Below are positions 32,921 through 37,618 of a DNA stretch of 64,000 nucleotides, in pieces (position 1 is the stretch's first letter; each line of letters opens with the position of its first letter). The notes below the pieces were generated by a model. That model did not search any database, was not told where the DNA came from, and saw nothing but the letters and a program-made list of their open reading frames with translations. The DNA comes from an uncultured Pelagibacteraceae bacterium (GTDB lineage: Bacteria; Pseudomonadota; Alphaproteobacteria; Pelagibacterales; Pelagibacteraceae). The DNA is taken from NCBI GenBank assembly GCA_902557155.1, contig CACDYR010000002.1:71025-135024 (forward strand), read 5' to 3'. The position numbers were made by a program, and so were the translations under genes.

Positions 32921-34458
32921 TGAAGAAAAAAATCAAAACAGCTCTCATATCTGTATCTGACAAAAATAACTTAAAACCATTGCTAAATATTTTAAAAAAA
33001 AACAAAATTAAAATAATTAGCTCAGGTGGTACTTATAAAAAAATTAAAAAATTAAAATTTAACTGTTTAGAAGTATCTGATTTTACTAGTTCCCCCGAGA
33101 TTTTGGAGGGTAGGGTAAAAACTCTTCATCCAAAAATTCATGCAGGGATTTTAAGTAAAAGAGAAAAAAAATCTCACTTAAAAGATCTTAAAGATAATAA
33201 TTTTGAGAATATTGATTTAGTAATAGTTAATTTTTATCCATTTGAGAACACTCTTAAAAAAACAAATAATCATCTAAAAATTATTGAAAATATAGATGTA
33301 GGTGGTCCCACTATGGTTAGATCGGCGGCAAAAAACTACAATGATGTAGCTGTAATAACTTCTCCAGATCAATATGAGGAGTTAATTCAAGAACTAAAAA
33401 AATTCAAGGGATCTACTTCTTTAAATTTTAGAGAAAAACTATCAAGAATAGCGTTTGCTGAGACGGCATATTATGACTCTGTGATTTCAAACTATTTTAA
33501 CAAAAAAACAAATACTATTTTCCCCAAGAAAAAAATTTTTCATGGAAATCTAATAGAGCAACTTAGATATGGTGAAAATCCTCACCAATTAAGCGCAATT
33601 TATTCCAGTAGTTCAAATATGAACTTAAAACAAATTCATGGAAAACAGCTTAGTTATAACAATTATAATGACATATTTAGCGCTCTTACTATTTCAAGAT
33701 CTTTACCAAAAGGGAAAGGAACAGTCATAGTTAAGCACGCAAACCCGTGTGGAGTTTCTGCTAAAAATGATCATTTAGAGAGTTATAAGTCCGCTCTGTC
33801 TTGTGACCCTGTAAGTGCTTTTGGTGGAATAGTTTCTTGTAATTTTAAAATTAAAAGAGATTTAGCTGTTGAATTAAATAAGTTATTTTTAGAAGTAATA
33901 ATTGCAAATGGTTTCGATAGCAATTCAATCAAAATATTAAATGCTAAAAAAAACTTAAGATTGATTGATGGAACAAATTATACATCAGGAGAACTTTTTA
34001 AGTTTGTATCATTTAATCAAGATATAATGATGCAATCAGAGGACTTAAATATATTTGCAAAAAAAAATTTTAAAGTTGTATCAAAACGAAAACCAACATC
34101 TAAACAACTTAAAGATCTAATTTTTGCTTTTAATGTATGTAGGTATGTAAAATCAAATGCAATAGTATTAGCATCTAATGAAGCTACTGTTGGTATTGGT
34201 TCTGGTCAACCAAGTAGACTAGATAGTTGCCAAATAGCAATAAATAAAATGAAAAAATTTAATCTTCAGACTGATAATTTAGTAGCAGCCTCAGACGCAT
34301 TTTTTCCTTTTGTAGATGGTATCGAAAAATTAGTCCAATCAGGTGTTAGAGCTGTTATTCAACCATCTGGATCAATAAGAGATAAAGAAATAATTAATTT
34401 TGCAAACGAGACTGATACTGTGCTTCTTTTTTCAGAGACAAGACATTTTAGACATTAG
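32920..34458 (+). CDS. purH: AICAR transformylase/IMP cyclohydrolase
   Basis: GRVKTLHP, IDVGGPTMVR, LRYGENPHQ, KHANPCG, SDAFFPF. Confidence 0.98.
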   Translation: MKKKIKTALISVSDKNNLKPLLNILKKNKIKIISSGGTYKKIKKLKFNCLEVSDFTSSPEILEGRVKTLHPKIHAGILSKREKKSHLKDLKDNNFENIDLVIVNFYPFENTLKKTNNHLKIIENIDVGGPTMVRSAAKNYNDVAVITSPDQYEELIQELKKFKGSTSLNFREKLSRIAFAETAYYDSVISNYFNKKTNTIFPKKKIFHGNLIEQLRYGENPHQLSAIYSSSSNMNLKQIHGKQLSYNNYNDIFSALTISRSLPKGKGTVIVKHANPCGVSAKNDHLESYKSALSCDPVSAFGGIVSCNFKIKRDLAVELNKLFLEVIIANGFDSNSIKILNAKKNLRLIDGTNYTSGELFKFVSFNQDIMMQSEDLNIFAKKNFKVVSKRKPTSKQLKDLIFAFNVCRYVKSNAIVLASNEATVGIGSGQPSRLDSCQIAINKMKKFNLQTDNLVAASDAFFPFVDGIEKLVQSGVRAVIQPSGSIRDKEIINFANETDTVLLFSETRHFRH

Positions 34459-34792
34459 TTATTTTATCTATTTTTGCAGCAAGAATAAAATCACTCTCGG
34501 CAAGACCCTTTATCGCATGCGTAAATATTTTAATTCTCGCATAACCCCACCCAAACCATAGATCAGGATGATGACCTTCAGCTTCAGCTATTTGTCCAAC
34601 TTTATTGACAAATTCCTGACTTTTTAAAAAGTTATCAAATTTAAAATTCTTGATTAAATGAAAGCCATCAATTTTATCTTCTAAAACTTCCCAGCCATCA
34701 ACTTTTTTAAGATATTTATGTATCTCCTCTGCATTAAATGGAGGAATATTTCCTTCACAAGGAACACACTTTTTGTTTGCTAGATCACTCAT
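34448..34792 (-). CDS. Pterin-4-alpha-carbinolamine dehydratase (start corrected to MSDLANKK)
   Basis: CVPC, EGHHPDL, FTHAIKGL..DFILAAKID; the longer ORF call overlaps the tRNA. Confidence 0.92.
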   Translation of the reverse strand: MSDLANKKCVPCEGNIPPFNAEEIHKYLKKVDGWEVLEDKIDGFHLIKNFKFDNFLKSQEFVNKVGQIAEAEGHHPDLWFGWGYARIKIFTHAIKGLAESDFILAAKIDKITNV

Positions 34793-34801
34793 AATTTTTT
34801 T

Positions 34802-34876
34802 TGGAGCGGGCAAAGGGGGTCGAACCCTCGACCTTCTCGTTGGCAACGAGACGCTCTACCACTGAGCTATGCCCGC
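34802..34876 (-). tRNA. tRNA-Gly(GCC)
   Basis: GCGGGCATAGCTCAGTGGTAGAGCGTCTCGTTGCCAACGAGAAGGTCGAGGGTTCGACCCCCTTTGCCCGCTCCA; cloverleaf, GCC anticodon, encoded CCA. Confidence 0.98.
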
Positions 34877-34878
34877 TT
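34837..34878. repeat. att core copy 1 (42-bp direct repeat = 5' half of tRNA-Gly)
   Basis: TCGTTGGCAACGAGACGCTCTACCACTGAGCTATGCCCGCTT, identical to 36668-36709. Confidence 0.97.
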
Positions 34879-34893
34879 CTTAAATTATTATTG

Positions 34894-34922
34894 AAATTAG
34901 AGGCTTTTTAAAAATTTAGCAA
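34894..34922 (-). promoter_or_regulatory. Island-supplied candidate sigma70 promoter for the intact tRNA-Gly
   Basis: Minus strand TTGCTA-N17-TAATTT, 17 nt upstream of the tRNA 5' end. Confidence 0.45.
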
Positions 34923-34949
34923 GAGGCTATTTTAGTAAAATTTGGACCC

Positions 34950-34971
34950 AACTGTGCCGACAGTGTGCCGA
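34950..34971. repeat. Tandem arm-type repeat pair (left end)
   Basis: TGTGCCGA at 34953 and 34964 (11-bp period). Confidence 0.65.
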
Positions 34972-34990
34972 GATTTTAGATAAAAATTTT

Positions 34991-35018
34991 ATCTGGGGCT
35001 GCATGCAGTGCCCCAGAT
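34991..35018. terminator. GC-rich hairpin just downstream of the HNH gene; probable terminator
   Basis: ATCTGGGGC-N10-GCCCCAGAT, 9-bp perfect stem flanked by A/T tracts. Confidence 0.7.
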
Positions 35019-35024
35019 TAGTTT

Positions 35025-35447
35025 TTAATTTTCAATGTAAGGTATTTGCAATTCCCAATAGCCAGCTACTTTCATATGTTCATGAAAATTTTCATGGCAG
35101 TTGTTACACAAAGCAACTACATCTTGCATGGGAACTTCTCTAAACTTTACACCATGATATTTATTATGATGAGCACATTGTGAAGATCTAGCACAGTTCA
35201 CGCATTTTGGTGAATTAGCTAAAGTATACGCAGAAACAGCCTGCCAATGGTCTGTTTTATAGTACATCTTTAACGTAAGCATCTCACACACAAAGTGTCC
35301 ATGTTCAATAATGATACTTGCTTGCCTGAAATCATTTCGCTTCAGAGCATCTTCTTTTTCACGGAATAATTTATTAGCTAAATCAAAGAGCTTGTCTGTT
35401 CCTAAAAGATTTCTTGCGTTATCATAATCTTGTTTGGTTCTGCTCAT
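35025..35447 (-). CDS. HNH-family endonuclease with CxxC...CxxCH zinc site
   Basis: YYKTDHWQ..., CVNC, HH, LCNNCHENFH; AGGAGG Shine-Dalgarno 8 nt before ATG. Confidence 0.8.
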   Translation of the reverse strand: MSRTKQDYDNARNLLGTDKLFDLANKLFREKEDALKRNDFRQASIIIEHGHFVCEMLTLKMYYKTDHWQAVSAYTLANSPKCVNCARSSQCAHHNKYHGVKFREVPMQDVVALCNNCHENFHEHMKVAGYWELQIPYIEN

Positions 35448-35763
35448 AGTTATTTCCTCCTTTCTTCCTTTTTTAAAAAAGGAAATAACCCTAAATTCTT
35501 GTTACACTTTTCTTTTAGTGAGTCAACAGAACATTCATAGAAAGAAATGTGTACGTAGTTATAGTTTCGTTATCATTTAATTATAATAAGGTTATTTTTT
35601 TTTTGGCTTAAAATAACAATTTTTAAAGAATTTATTTTAGATATCTAAAAAATAAAACTTATACAAATTTATCCCCATGAATATTTATTTAAAACCTATG
35701 GTTTTTTAAATCTTAGGGTGTGTGCAAATTATGGAATTAGATGATATTTTTTGATACTCTAAA

Positions 35764-36357
35764 TTGATGTTAGGTGATTTATTACTAGACTTTTTAGACC
35801 AAAAAAAAGTCATTAAAAATTCTGCTAAAGAGTTTGCAAGACTTTACGATTTTTTTGAAATTTATAAAAAATCAACCCCTGAAAATTTTAAAAAATACAT
35901 TGATGAACAAAATGAATATATAATCTCAGAAATTCTAACGAGTTTATATTTAATCGCTTATGTGGCCAAAATTCGAAACAACAAAAAACTAATATTTAAA
36001 TCTGCTTTTCAAAAAGACGAATTTTTCATGCAAGATATCTTTCTTCAAAATAAAGATATTAGAAAAGTTTTTACAACCGAATATCAAATTATAATAACTG
36101 CATTATCAAGTAAATTTGGTATGGATAAAAAGGATGTAAAATTAGTCATAGATGGAATGCACGCTATTTTAATACTTAAGACTGAGGAAAAAAATAAAGA
36201 GGAACCAGATGAAACGCCAATACCTGATTTTTCTTCTATAGCTCAATCTTTAGATAATGACTTTCGTAAAATTGAAGATTTTGAGAACGACTCACCTGAT
36301 AAAATAGATAATTTTGTTAAAAAATTAATTGAAAAACATTATTGGGGAAAAAACTAA
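35764..36357 (+). CDS. Hypothetical protein (island cargo)
   Basis: 197-aa ORF, helical-looking with acidic C-terminal third; no motif recognised. Confidence 0.65.
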   Translation: MMLGDLLLDFLDQKKVIKNSAKEFARLYDFFEIYKKSTPENFKKYIDEQNEYIISEILTSLYLIAYVAKIRNNKKLIFKSAFQKDEFFMQDIFLQNKDIRKVFTTEYQIIITALSSKFGMDKKDVKLVIDGMHAILILKTEEKNKEEPDETPIPDFSSIAQSLDNDFRKIEDFENDSPDKIDNFVKKLIEKHYWGKN

Positions 36358-36539
36358 TCTTTGGGACTTATTTTTCTTAATTTTTTATTTTGAATATAAA
36401 TTATACCTATAAGTAAAAATACTAACAAAGGGTAAGCAATAATAAATATGATGATATTTATTAATTCATAACTAGTTCCAGTGAGATCTGCCAACCAAAC
36501 AAGAATATCTACACATAAATAAAAAATATAATCAATCAT
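36354..36539 (-). CDS. Small membrane protein (island cargo)
   Basis: 61 aa; amphipathic N-terminus, TM helix, basic tail. Confidence 0.6.
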   Translation of the reverse strand: MIDYIFYLCVDILVWLADLTGTSYELINIIIFIIAYPLLVFLLIGIIYIQNKKLRKISPKD

Positions 36540-36587
36540 TAATCTTTTAATTAATATTAATTTTGACTTATGTTCTTTTTTTTTCTT

Positions 36588-36609
36588 AACTGTGTCGTCA
36601 GTGTGTCAA
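36588..36609. repeat. Tandem arm-type repeat pair (right end)
   Basis: TGTGTCGT at 36591 and TGTGTCAA at 36602 (11-bp period); 17/21 identical to 34950-34970. Confidence 0.65.
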
Positions 36610-36667
36610 AAAATAAAGTTAACGTAAAAATTACAGAAAATTGAGTTATTTATTAAAGAATTAAGGA

Positions 36668-36709
36668 TCGTTGGCAACGAGACGCTCTACCACTGAGCTA
36701 TGCCCGCTT
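36668..36709 (-). repeat. att core copy 2: orphan 5' half of tRNA-Gly
   Basis: tRNA nt 1-40 plus 2 upstream nt; no T-arm or 3' acceptor strand follows. Confidence 0.97.
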
Positions 36710-36720
36710 GTTTAAAAAAC

Positions 36721-36749
36721 ATTGTAGTTAGCGGTTTTTATAAATGCAA
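36721..36749 (-). promoter_or_regulatory. Probable native sigma70 promoter of tRNA-Gly, now facing into the island
   Basis: Minus strand TTGCAT-N17-TACAAT, 13 nt upstream of the tRNA-half 5' end. Confidence 0.65.
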
Positions 36750-36766
36750 GCAATAAGAAGAAATTT

Positions 36767-37618
36767 TTATTTTAGATAATTTAATTCTTTTAAATTATTT
36801 TCAAAAATTGAATTTAATTTATTTTGGTAGCTTTTATCAAATATGCTTTTCCAATCGTTTTTTGGTCCTAAATGAAAAAAAGGAATTTTTTTAGGATCAT
36901 TTTTTGATAAAACAGATTCCAGAAAACCACTGTTTTTTTCCATGTTTTTTAAATTTTCAAAATTACATGATTTTACAGAATTTTGAGCTTTTAAGTTATT
37001 AATCTCTTTTTTTTCTTGAATAGTATTTTGAATAAAATCTATTATTTCCCTTAAAATGTCTAAAGGTTTGACTATAAGATCTTCATACTTAATTAATTTA
37101 ACTGGGAAAATCTTTTGATTTATCCAGGACTTATAATTTTTTTCCCAAGAACTTATAAATTGAAAATCACTAAAATCGTTTTTTACATGGTAATCGTGGA
37201 TATATTTTTTTTCACTTAACATAAATTTCAAAGCTTCATCTTTAGATAATTCATAATGATTTTGTAAAGAGGTTAATACATTTCTTGGATCGCGCACAAT
37301 GTAAATAGCACCAATAGTGTTTTTTTTATTTGTAAAATTACTGTTATTGATTGATCCTAAAATATTATGGGTTTTGAGAAAATTTAATTCATTATTTAAA
37401 TTTATTTTTTCCTGAGCTTTAATCCAAAATTTAGATGTGTCAGTTACTATTTTTGGATCATAATTAAAATCGCTAAAATGTCTTTTTTCAGGGAATTGAT
37501 CAATATTTTTAAGTAAATCTTGATTGAAAATGCCTTCTTCTGAATAAAAATATGATGACAACAATGCTCTTAACCATGTGTTCCCACTTTTGGGATATGA
37601 GGCTATCCAAAATATCAT
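36767..37618 (-). CDS. PAPS-dependent sulfotransferase (Sulfotransfer_1-like), paralogue 1
   Basis: [10 protein letters not shown] (5'-PSB loop), LKTH, YIVRDPRN..S (3'-PB), KYEDL. Confidence 0.92.
   Translation of the reverse strand: MIFWIASYPKSGNTWLRALLSSYFYSEEGIFNQDLLKNIDQFPEKRHFSDFNYDPKIVTDTSKFWIKAQEKINLNNELNFLKTHNILGSINNSNFTNKKNTIGAIYIVRDPRNVLTSLQNHYELSKDEALKFMLSEKKYIHDYHVKNDFSDFQFISSWEKNYKSWINQKIFPVKLIKYEDLIVKPLDILREIIDFIQNTIQEKKEINNLKAQNSVKSCNFENLKNMEKNSGFLESVLSKNDPKKIPFFHLGPKNDWKSIFDKSYQNKLNSIFENNLKELNYLK

What the first reader, a model, noticed from the sequence alone, without database searches (positions are those of the whole stretch)
35448..35490. Two-state RNA switch over the ribosome-binding site of the HNH nuclease
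Seen on the mRNA strand: GGTTATTTCCTTTTTTAAAAAAGGAAGAAAGGAGGAAATAACT-ATG. Fold A pairs GTTATTTCCTTTTTT with AAAGGAGGAAATAAC (15 bp, two G-U pairs, 11-nt loop), burying the whole AGGAGG Shine-Dalgarno. Fold B uses the perfect 20-nt palindrome TTCCTTTTTTAAAAAAGGAA (35465-35484) and leaves the SD free. The folds are mutually exclusive. Inference: translational silencing of a toxic nuclease, released by temperature, processing, an antisense RNA or a phage factor, as in type I toxin leaders. The palindrome could instead be an operator. Caveat: low-complexity purine/pyrimidine tracts inflate chance pairing.
Basis: partly seen in the sequence, partly recalled or inferred. Interest (0 to 1): 0.68.

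Follow-up and report, generated by a model that had tools for sequence, protein, structure and literature searches.

The report
Ribosome-site lock on mobile nuclease gene
A small mobile nuclease gene in a SAR11 (Pelagibacter) ocean bacterium carries a conserved RNA hairpin that hides its ribosome-binding site; this is a built-in translation brake of a known kind, and I found no support for a true two-state switch.

Summary
On the minus-strand mRNA, 35490-35475 pairs with 35463-35448 (16 bp, three G-U pairs, 11-nt loop). This buries the Shine-Dalgarno (SD) sequence: -16.3 kcal/mol, z -3.9, 0 of 200 shuffles. The 20-nt palindrome at 35465-35484 is exact.

The hairpin is not a low-complexity accident. 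Eight leader variants from homologues with at least 62% protein identity all fold the same way (-15.7 to -18.7 kcal/mol), although their outer arms differ in sequence. Swapping arms between lineages costs about 5 kcal/mol. G-U pairs place the structure on the sense RNA.

The "two-state switch" is only partly supported. A second SD-like "decoy" is conserved, so fold B can form. However, every SD-open state lies 7-13 kcal/mol above fold A, the B-to-A barrier is only about 6 kcal/mol, and the SD stays paired up to 50 °C.

The true SD matches 10-13 nt of this genome's 16S tail, so the 5' arm mimics that tail.

Best reading: a portable, constitutive translational brake on an HNH-like gene cassette found in tRNA-linked islets. 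It resembles the hairpins of phage T4 homing-endonuclease genes.

The parts
35521..35526 (-). Candidate -35 box TTGACT of the cassette's own promoter (P1)
   Evidence: TTGAC is invariant in all 8-12 aligned leaders, inside the conserved AAYGTTCTSTTGAC. The assignment as a promoter is inferred.
35498..35506 (-). Candidate extended -10 (TG-T-AACAAG), 17-nt spacer; predicted transcription start at about 35492-35490
   Evidence: TG and the A residues at -11 and -9 are invariant columns. In all lineages the stem begins 6-9 nt after the hexamer. The start site is not measured.
35475..35490 (-). 5' arm of fold A: an anti-SD sequence that mimics the 16S rRNA 3' tail
   Evidence: Own-genome 16S tail is ...GGAUUACCUCCUUUCU.
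35464..35474 (-). Apical loop of fold A; contains the conserved decoy SD (AAAAAAGGAAG)
   Evidence: AAAAGGAR is conserved in all variants.
35465..35484 (-). Exact 20-nt palindrome, which forms the fold B hairpin (anti-SD paired with decoy)
35456..35465 (-). True, extended SD AGAAAGGAGG; 10 nt perfectly complementary to the 16S tail
   Evidence: duplex -16.6 kcal/mol.
35448..35463 (-). 3' arm of fold A (SD plus AAATAACT), ending directly 5' of the AUG
35025..35447 (-). 140-aa ORF: N-terminal helical domain plus C-terminal HNH-like zinc-finger module (CxxC...HH...CxxCH)
34982..35018 (-). Terminator-like hairpin (AUCUGGGGC/GCCCCAGAU, 9 bp) plus U run, just after the stop codon
   Evidence: (I2).
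34937..35721 (-). Conserved cassette (upstream block, promoter, leader, ORF, terminator) shared between different genomic contexts
   Evidence: blastn of the window against L020, L024, L028, L029, L030, L069.
34802..34876 (-). tRNA-Gly(GCC), right border of the 1.8-kb islet
36668..36709 (-). Identical copy of the 5' 42 nt of tRNA-Gly, left border of the islet
   Evidence: (D1).

Best explanation
The 43 nt in front of the HNH-like gene are a cis-acting mRNA leader. I predict they form the very 5' end of the transcript. The 5' arm copies the 3' tail of 16S rRNA and pairs within the same molecule with an unusually long SD (10-13 nt complementary to the 16S tail). A 30S subunit therefore has to displace this arm to start translation.

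The hairpin is part of a roughly 0.8-kb self-contained cassette (promoter, leader, ORF, terminator) that moves between tRNA-linked islets of Pelagibacterales. It acts as a built-in, constitutive brake that keeps nuclease synthesis low whichever promoter reads into the cassette, including a displaced tRNA promoter.

The conserved decoy SD in the loop can take over the freed anti-SD arm (fold B). This cuts the cost of opening from about 16 to about 7-13 kcal/mol, so that SD binding to the ribosome (-13.5 to -21 kcal/mol) can still win. Fold B is thus a hand-off partner or a transient co-transcriptional intermediate, not a second stable state.

Shown: the structure, its conservation and covariation, the energetics, the SD complementarity and the mobility of the cassette. 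Inferred: the transcription start, the effect on translation, the role of the decoy and the toxicity of the protein.
For: - The hairpin is significant in the window and in 7 further leader variants: -15.7 to -17.9 kcal/mol, z -2.6 to -4.9.
- The outer arms differ between lineages but stay complementary: GTTATTT/AAATAAC, GTTAT/GTAAC, GTGT/ACAC or GCAC, GGTC/GACC, GTTTTAT/GTAAAAC.
- On the model-fitted alignment 93.5% of cells are paired against 60-75% when partners are slid. The covariation score is reached by 0 of 500 shuffles, and 3 pairs have double changes.
- Arm swap: cognate combinations average -16.6, non-cognate -11.2 kcal/mol.
- The sense strand folds at -15.7 to -17.9, the antisense at -7 to -15, and there are 0-4 G-U pairs per stem.
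- Opening the SD costs 7.4-13.4 kcal/mol. Barriers are 5.4-6.4 (B to A) and 13-17 (A to B) kcal/mol.
- The 16S tail comes from this genome. SD:anti-SD duplexes are -13.5 to -21.3 kcal/mol.
- The design is unique in this genome. In 401 Pelagibacterales genomes only this one gives a true hit.
- The cassette occurs in at least 3 contexts.
- T4 precedent: PMC2988022 section 12.
Against: - There are no expression data.
- Only about 5 independent helix types exist, all from one shallow clade, so the covariation statistics are modest (pairs with double changes are reached by 140 of 500 shuffles).
- Net thermodynamics (SD duplex minus opening cost) are favourable in every lineage, so the brake may be mild rather than strong.
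- The conserved decoy is not needed for a simple brake, which leaves room for a triggered mechanism.
- More distant homologues (35-47% identity) do without any such hairpin.
Confidence: 0.6

Rival explanations
1. It is a genuine triggered switch. The primary transcript is translationally inert until a signal removes or captures the 5' arm, after which the decoy or fold B holds the arm away from the SD. The signal could be endonucleolytic processing in the A/U-rich loop, an antisense or trans RNA, or a phage or host factor. This would resemble the activation of type I toxin mRNAs by processing.
For: - The decoy AAAAGGAR is conserved while neighbouring spacer positions diverge.
- Fold B is better than loop shuffles in most lineages.
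- Fold A is so stable that spontaneous opening is rare: the A-to-B barrier is 13-17 kcal/mol.
- The gene product is a probable nuclease.
Against: - No candidate trigger was found. There is no Rfam family and no CsrA.
- No conserved promoter-like element sits in antisense or inside the hairpin. Promoter-like sites in the region are fewer than in shuffles: 5 against 10.9.
- Fold B is weak in the L026 lineage: -3.4 kcal/mol, p 0.26.
- Because the decoy is a near-copy of the SD, its pairing with the anti-SD arm follows automatically.
Confidence: 0.2
2. The main function is to stabilise the mRNA. A hairpin at the extreme 5' end protects against 5'-end-dependent decay, and the involvement of the SD is secondary.
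For: - The predicted transcription start lies 0-2 nt before the stem in all lineages.
- It is established knowledge that 5'-terminal stem-loops stabilise bacterial mRNAs, ompA being the classic case.
Against: - A protective hairpin does not need to include the SD, yet in all 8 variants the 3' arm is the SD itself and the arm ends 1-4 nt before the AUG.
- The start site is unmeasured.
Confidence: 0.1
3. The element acts at the DNA level. The palindrome is an operator or a recombination/cleavage site for a protein, possibly the HNH protein itself, in the way I-TevI represses its own gene.
For: - The inverted repeat CCTTTT...AAAAGG is present in all lineages.
- I-TevI binds an operator at its own promoter (established knowledge; reviewed in PMC2988022).
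Against: - Half-site spacing varies from about 2 to 6 nt.
- The outer arms covary instead of keeping one sequence.
- G-U pairs would be A-C mismatches on the other strand, and the antisense fold is 2-9 kcal/mol weaker.
Confidence: 0.05
4. It is chance pairing of purine and pyrimidine tracts in a genome with 29% G+C.
For: - A/T-rich palindromes are common in these genomes. The weak model hits in other genomes are such palindromes.
- In a crude genome-wide set, 5 of 671 leader-like windows fold as well or better.
Against: Conservation, compensatory changes, the arm-swap result and the near-constant stability across lineages.
Confidence: 0.02

Closest known systems
RBS-sequestering hairpins of T-even phage homing-endonuclease genes (I-TevI, I-TevII, I-TevIII, segB, mobE of Aeh1); Edgell, Gibb & Belfort 2010, PMC2988022
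   Same: A very stable hairpin buries a consensus SD a few nt upstream of the AUG of a mobile (partly HNH-type) endonuclease gene. The structure travels with the gene and limits its translation.
   Different: In T4 the lock is relieved by a late promoter placed so that late transcripts lack the 5' arm. Here the only conserved promoter-like element lies upstream of the whole hairpin. The host is a cell (SAR11 islet), not a phage. The leader also has a decoy SD and a 10-13-nt SD. Homing activity of this protein is not shown.
Translationally inert primary transcripts of type I toxin genes (hok, tisB, and others)
   Same: A fold hides the ribosome-loading site of a potentially harmful gene.
   Different: Those toxins are small membrane peptides with a cognate antisense RNA and defined processing steps. 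Here the product is a 140-aa soluble HNH-like protein, and no antisense RNA or processing site is evident.
Levivirus (MS2) maturation-gene leader, a kinetic gate (established knowledge)
   Same: An upstream complementary sequence closes the SD, and a local hairpin forms first during synthesis.
   Different: In MS2 slow refolding gives a useful time window. Here the computed B-to-A barrier is only about 6 kcal/mol, and the SD pairs as soon as it emerges.
Structure-compensating strong SD (de Smit & van Duin thermodynamic model; established knowledge)
   Same: A long SD:anti-SD duplex offsets the cost of unfolding a structured initiation region. The net energies here fit that picture.
   Different: That is a general principle, not a family. 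Here both halves (a 16S-tail mimic and an extended SD) are conserved together in a mobile cassette.

Membership tests
T4-type homing-endonuclease RBS hairpin | Stable hairpin that includes the SD just upstream of the AUG | tested here: met
T4-type homing-endonuclease RBS hairpin | Promoter placed so that some transcripts lack the 5' arm and free the SD | tested here: not met
   The conserved -35 and extended -10 lie upstream. The stem starts 6-9 nt after the hexamer in all lineages, and there is no conserved promoter-like element inside the hairpin. This rests on sequence only; no start site was mapped.
T4-type homing-endonuclease RBS hairpin | The gene encodes a homing endonuclease | tested here: inconclusive
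   The HNH-like module is supported by phrog_119 (5.8e-5), the HNH domain of an HNH-bearing Cascade subunit ('CasD', 8zp9) in the PDB (E 0.003) and relatives that pass PF01844. It falls below Pfam cut-offs itself, and the structural model of that domain is poor. The cassette is mobile, but homing is not shown.
RNA thermometer (ROSE / fourU type) | The SD-containing stem melts within the organism's physiological temperature range | tested here: not met
   Mean unpaired probability of GGAGG is at most 0.05 up to 50 °C in the window, and lower in L010.
Type I toxin-antitoxin leader | Small hydrophobic toxin peptide | tested here: not met
   The product is a 140-aa helical plus zinc-finger protein.
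Type I toxin-antitoxin leader | Cognate antisense RNA, or processing that activates the mRNA | not testable with these tools
The promoter scan is uninformative.
Any Rfam family (including riboswitches and the int-alpA and LOOT leaders seen before other HNH genes) | Match to a curated covariance model | tested here: not met
   No relevant hit at E of 1 or below over 34800-36800; only the tRNA and chance hits appear.
CsrA/RsmA-controlled leader | GGA motifs in a hairpin loop and at the SD, plus a CsrA protein in the genome | tested here: not met
   The motifs are present, but PF02599 is absent from this genome while control genomes are positive.
Intrinsic terminator or attenuator | G+C-rich stem followed by a U tract | tested here: not met
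   The stem is followed by CUAUGAGC on the sense strand and CCUAAAUU on the antisense strand, and the scan does not report it.

The most novel reading that the evidence does not exclude
The leader is a three-part strand-exchange latch: a 16S-tail mimic, a decoy SD and an extended SD. Its stability would be held at about -16 to -18 kcal/mol so that translation of the nuclease depends steeply on the supply of free 30S subunits with an accessible anti-SD tail, or on one unknown factor acting on the loop. The cassette would then express its nuclease only in particular cell states, such as after the collapse of bulk mRNA during phage attack or starvation.
Probability: 0.15. Interest if true: 0.6.

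Novelty: new member of a known kind. Interest (0 to 1): 0.38.

Why it matters
SAR11 has very few protein regulators and relies heavily on cis-acting RNAs. This adds a small, uncatalogued leader that travels with a mobile nuclease cassette in the tRNA-linked variable islets of one of the most abundant bacterial groups in the ocean.

It extends the T4 finding that selfish endonuclease genes carry their own translational brake to a cellular element. It also offers a compact natural example (about 45 nt) of an anti-SD mimic balanced against an extended SD, which is easy to test with reporters. It does not change any general concept.

Tried and rejected
- Thermometer: rejected, because the stem does not melt below 50 °C.
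- Bistable or kinetic switch: not supported by the energies and barriers.
- Operator: disfavoured by variable half-site spacing, covarying arms and G-U pairs.
- Terminator or attenuator: there is no U tract.
- CsrA control: no CsrA gene.
- Rfam membership: none.
- Translational coupling to an upstream micro-ORF: the short ATG-initiated frames near the -35 box differ in frame and length, and are absent in L069.
- Upstream "anti-anti-SD" (AAAAAAAAAATAACC at 35604-35590): not conserved in other lineages.
- Search for the same leader elsewhere:
  - The 10 weaker model hits in 401 Pelagibacterales genomes are A/T palindromes without an HNH gene.
  - The single pattern hit in viral contigs is an unrelated strong SD before a phage portal gene.
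- Structure prediction of the protein gave pLDDT below 50 for the HNH half, so I ran no fold search.
- The MAFFT-based RNAalifold alignment under-counts covariation because the arms differ in register. I therefore added per-sequence folds and an arm-swap test.

Full report
**1. What is at 35448-35490**

Read on the minus strand, the sequence is GGGTTATTTCCTTTTTTAAAAAAGGAAGAAAGGAGGAAATAACT followed by ATG. The ATG at 35447 opens a 140-aa ORF, 35025-35447.

- Positions 35490-35475 pair with 35463-35448, leaving an 11-nt loop.
- Energy is -16.3 kcal/mol against -7.3 ± 2.3 for dinucleotide shuffles (z -3.9; 0 of 200 as stable).
- The hairpin persists in a 161-nt context.

The 20-nt palindrome at 35484-35465 is exact. 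When the SD is held open it gives fold B, 8 bp and about -6.5 kcal/mol.

**2. It is conserved with compensatory change**

The genome is a 1.27-Mb, 29% G+C member of the Pelagibacterales. The gene is rare: only 1 of 60 related genomes carries a homologue, at 35% identity.

Homologues with 62-99% identity come from marine metagenomes and one Pelagibacteraceae single-cell genome. Their upstream regions give 8 distinct leader variants, all with the same plan:

| Element | Sequence |
|---|---|
| Anti-SD arm | C/T-rich, ending in CCTTTT |
| Decoy | AAAAGGAR |
| True SD | AAAGGAGG |
| 3' arm | Continues almost to the ATG |

The outer helix differs between lineages but stays complementary:

| Lineage | 5' arm / 3' arm |
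|---|---|
| window | GTTATTT / AAATAAC |
| L024, L025, L028 | GTTAT / GTAAC |
| L010, L030 | GTGT / ACAC or GCAC |
| L020 | GGTC / GACC |
| L026, L027, L029, L069 | GTTTTAT / GTAAAAC |

The supporting measurements are:
- Each variant folds on its own into an SD-burying hairpin of -15.7 to -18.7 kcal/mol, with z -2.6 to -4.9.
- On an alignment fitted to a covariance model, 93.5% of cells pair, against 60-75% when partners are slid by 1-3 columns. The covariation score is reached by 0 of 500 shuffles, and three pairs show double changes.
- That alignment under-counts covariation, because the window and the L026 lineage use another register. The count of pairs with double changes is not significant on its own (140 of 500 shuffles).
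- An alignment-free arm swap makes the point more directly. Cognate 5'/3' combinations average -16.6 kcal/mol (worst -15.7), and non-cognate ones average -11.2.
- The stems contain 0-4 G-U pairs, and the antisense strand folds 2-9 kcal/mol worse. Selection therefore acts on the sense RNA.
- More distant homologues (35-47% identity and beyond) lack any such hairpin.
- The design is unique in this genome. A model search of 401 Pelagibacterales genomes found only this genome's copy; the ten weak hits are A/T palindromes with no HNH gene downstream.
- There is no Rfam family.

**3. Is it a two-state switch?**

The decoy is conserved. Fold B is somewhat more stable than with a shuffled loop: p 0.002-0.06 in seven variants and 0.26 in the L026 lineage.

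However, the decoy is a near-copy of the SD, so its complementarity to the anti-SD arm follows automatically. The energetics also argue against two populated states:
- The ensemble with the SD-to-AUG stretch open lies 7.4-13.4 kcal/mol above the full ensemble at 37 °C, and 10-20 kcal/mol above it at 10-20 °C, which is the relevant range for an ocean bacterium.
- The direct-path barrier from B to A is only 5.4-6.4 kcal/mol, while A to B costs 13-17.
- In a growing chain the minimum-free-energy fold changes to A as soon as the first SD bases appear.
- The SD stays at least 95% paired up to 50 °C, so this is not a thermometer.
- In the L020 lineage, parts of both pairings coexist in one hairpin.

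Fold B is thus at most a transient intermediate or a hand-off partner.

**4. An extended SD opposite a 16S-tail mimic**

The 16S gene of this genome ends ...GGATTACCTCCTTTCT. The true SD is a perfect 10-nt complement in the window (AGAAAGGAGG, 35465-35456) and 9-13 nt in the other lineages (9 in L030, whose SD reads GGAGA). Duplex energies are -13.5 to -21.3 kcal/mol.

The 5' arm therefore resembles the rRNA tail itself. Duplex energy minus opening cost is negative in every lineage. A 30S subunit can in principle win the competition, and capture of the released arm by the decoy lowers the price.

This fits the established thermodynamic view that a strong SD compensates for structure (de Smit and van Duin). 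It suggests a brake tuned to a set level, since stability is nearly constant across lineages, rather than complete silencing.

**5. Transcription unit and context**

- An invariant TTGAC (35526-35522) with a 17-nt spacer, an invariant TG and invariant A residues at -11 and -9 (35506-35498) make a plausible extended -10 promoter.
- In every lineage the stem starts 6-9 nt after the hexamer, so the hairpin would sit at the very 5' end of the mRNA.
- A 9-bp G+C-rich hairpin with a U run follows the stop codon.
- The homologous block, window 35721-34937, is shared by loci in different surroundings:
  - next to tRNA-Gly: window, L010, L024, L028, L030, L069;
  - next to tRNA-Val: L027, L029;
  - between HIT and AhpC genes: L020.
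- In the window, the cassette lies in a 1.8-kb islet bounded by tRNA-Gly(GCC) and an identical copy of its first 42 nt.
- This architecture is known for the attachment sites of HTVC019P-type pelagiphages, which complement the 5' part of the target tRNA (bioRxiv 10.1101/410191).
- In several loci the displaced tRNA promoter points into the cassette. This gives a rationale for a brake that works on any transcript; that rationale is my inference.

**6. The protein**

- The Pfam hits are below threshold (DUF968, E 0.006).
- Other sequence evidence supports an HNH-like module: phrog_8060 at 7.7e-7 and phrog_119 "HNH endonuclease" at 5.8e-5.
- The best PDB match is the HNH domain of a Cascade subunit ('CasD') that carries an HNH domain (E 0.003).
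- A library-wide profile search finds 4338 relatives of the C-terminal 70 residues, some of which pass PF01844.
- The motif CxxC...HHxxY...CxxCH is conserved.
- The AlphaFold model is confident only for the N-terminal helices.

"HNH-type nuclease" is therefore probable. "Toxic" is untested.

**7. Comparison with what is known**

The nearest precedent is the set of RBS-sequestering hairpins of T-even phage homing-endonuclease genes (PMC2988022). The function would be the same, but the release mechanism differs. Those phages use a late promoter that omits the 5' arm, and I find no conserved promoter inside this hairpin.

I rejected the following, as set out in the membership table:
- type I toxin leaders;
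- thermometers;
- CsrA sites (no CsrA gene);
- terminators;
- Rfam leaders, including int-alpA and LOOT, which earlier notes of this scan reported before other HNH genes.

**8. Limits**

The clade is shallow, with about five independent helix types. All functional statements are inferred from sequence and energy models.

**9. Verdict**

This is a real, selected SD-sequestering leader on a mobile HNH-like cassette. It is a new member of a known kind. The "switch" reading is possible but unsupported.

Noticed in passing
window 34802-34876 and 36668-36753: tRNA-Gly(GCC) and an identical copy of its first 42 nt (plus about 44 nt of diverged upstream flank) bracket a 1,831-bp islet without an integrase. 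The islet holds the HNH cassette, a 197-aa orphan ORF (+) and a 61-aa membrane ORF (-).
   Followed up: partly
L029 2606-2646 and 4041-4116; L027 1762-1796: The same HNH cassette sits in an islet bounded by a 5'-half copy of tRNA-Val(TAC) instead of tRNA-Gly. L033, a 47%-identity homologue without the hairpin, is again flanked by tRNA-Gly and its 5' half. The link between the gene and tRNA 5'-half islets is therefore older than the leader.
   Followed up: partly
window about 35655-35700 (-): A strongly conserved block of about 45 nt at the left end of the cassette (AGGTTTTAAATAAA..TGGGGATAA..TGTATAAnTT), followed by the A/T palindrome TTTTTTAGATATCTAAAA. It has no significant RNA fold (z 0.1). 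It could be a second promoter (TGTATAA) or a recombination or binding site.
   Followed up: partly
window 34448-34846 (-): The mechanical ORF for pterin-4a-carbinolamine dehydratase starts at a TTG that overlaps the tRNA-Gly gene. The real start is probably the internal ATG (MSDLANKK...).
   Followed up: no
window 34950-34970 (-): Tandem CGGCACA(C/G)U repeats just downstream of the terminator form a small hairpin.
   Followed up: no
L025 147-608: The source called this 86%-identity homologue as 153 aa by reading TAG as Gln. Under table 11 the frame ends after 140 codons, as in the window, so the longer call is probably an artefact.
   Followed up: no
L010 1042-1284; L012 558-800: A superinfection-immunity family gene (PF14373) lies convergent to the HNH cassette inside the tRNA-Gly islet of this lineage.
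   Followed up: no
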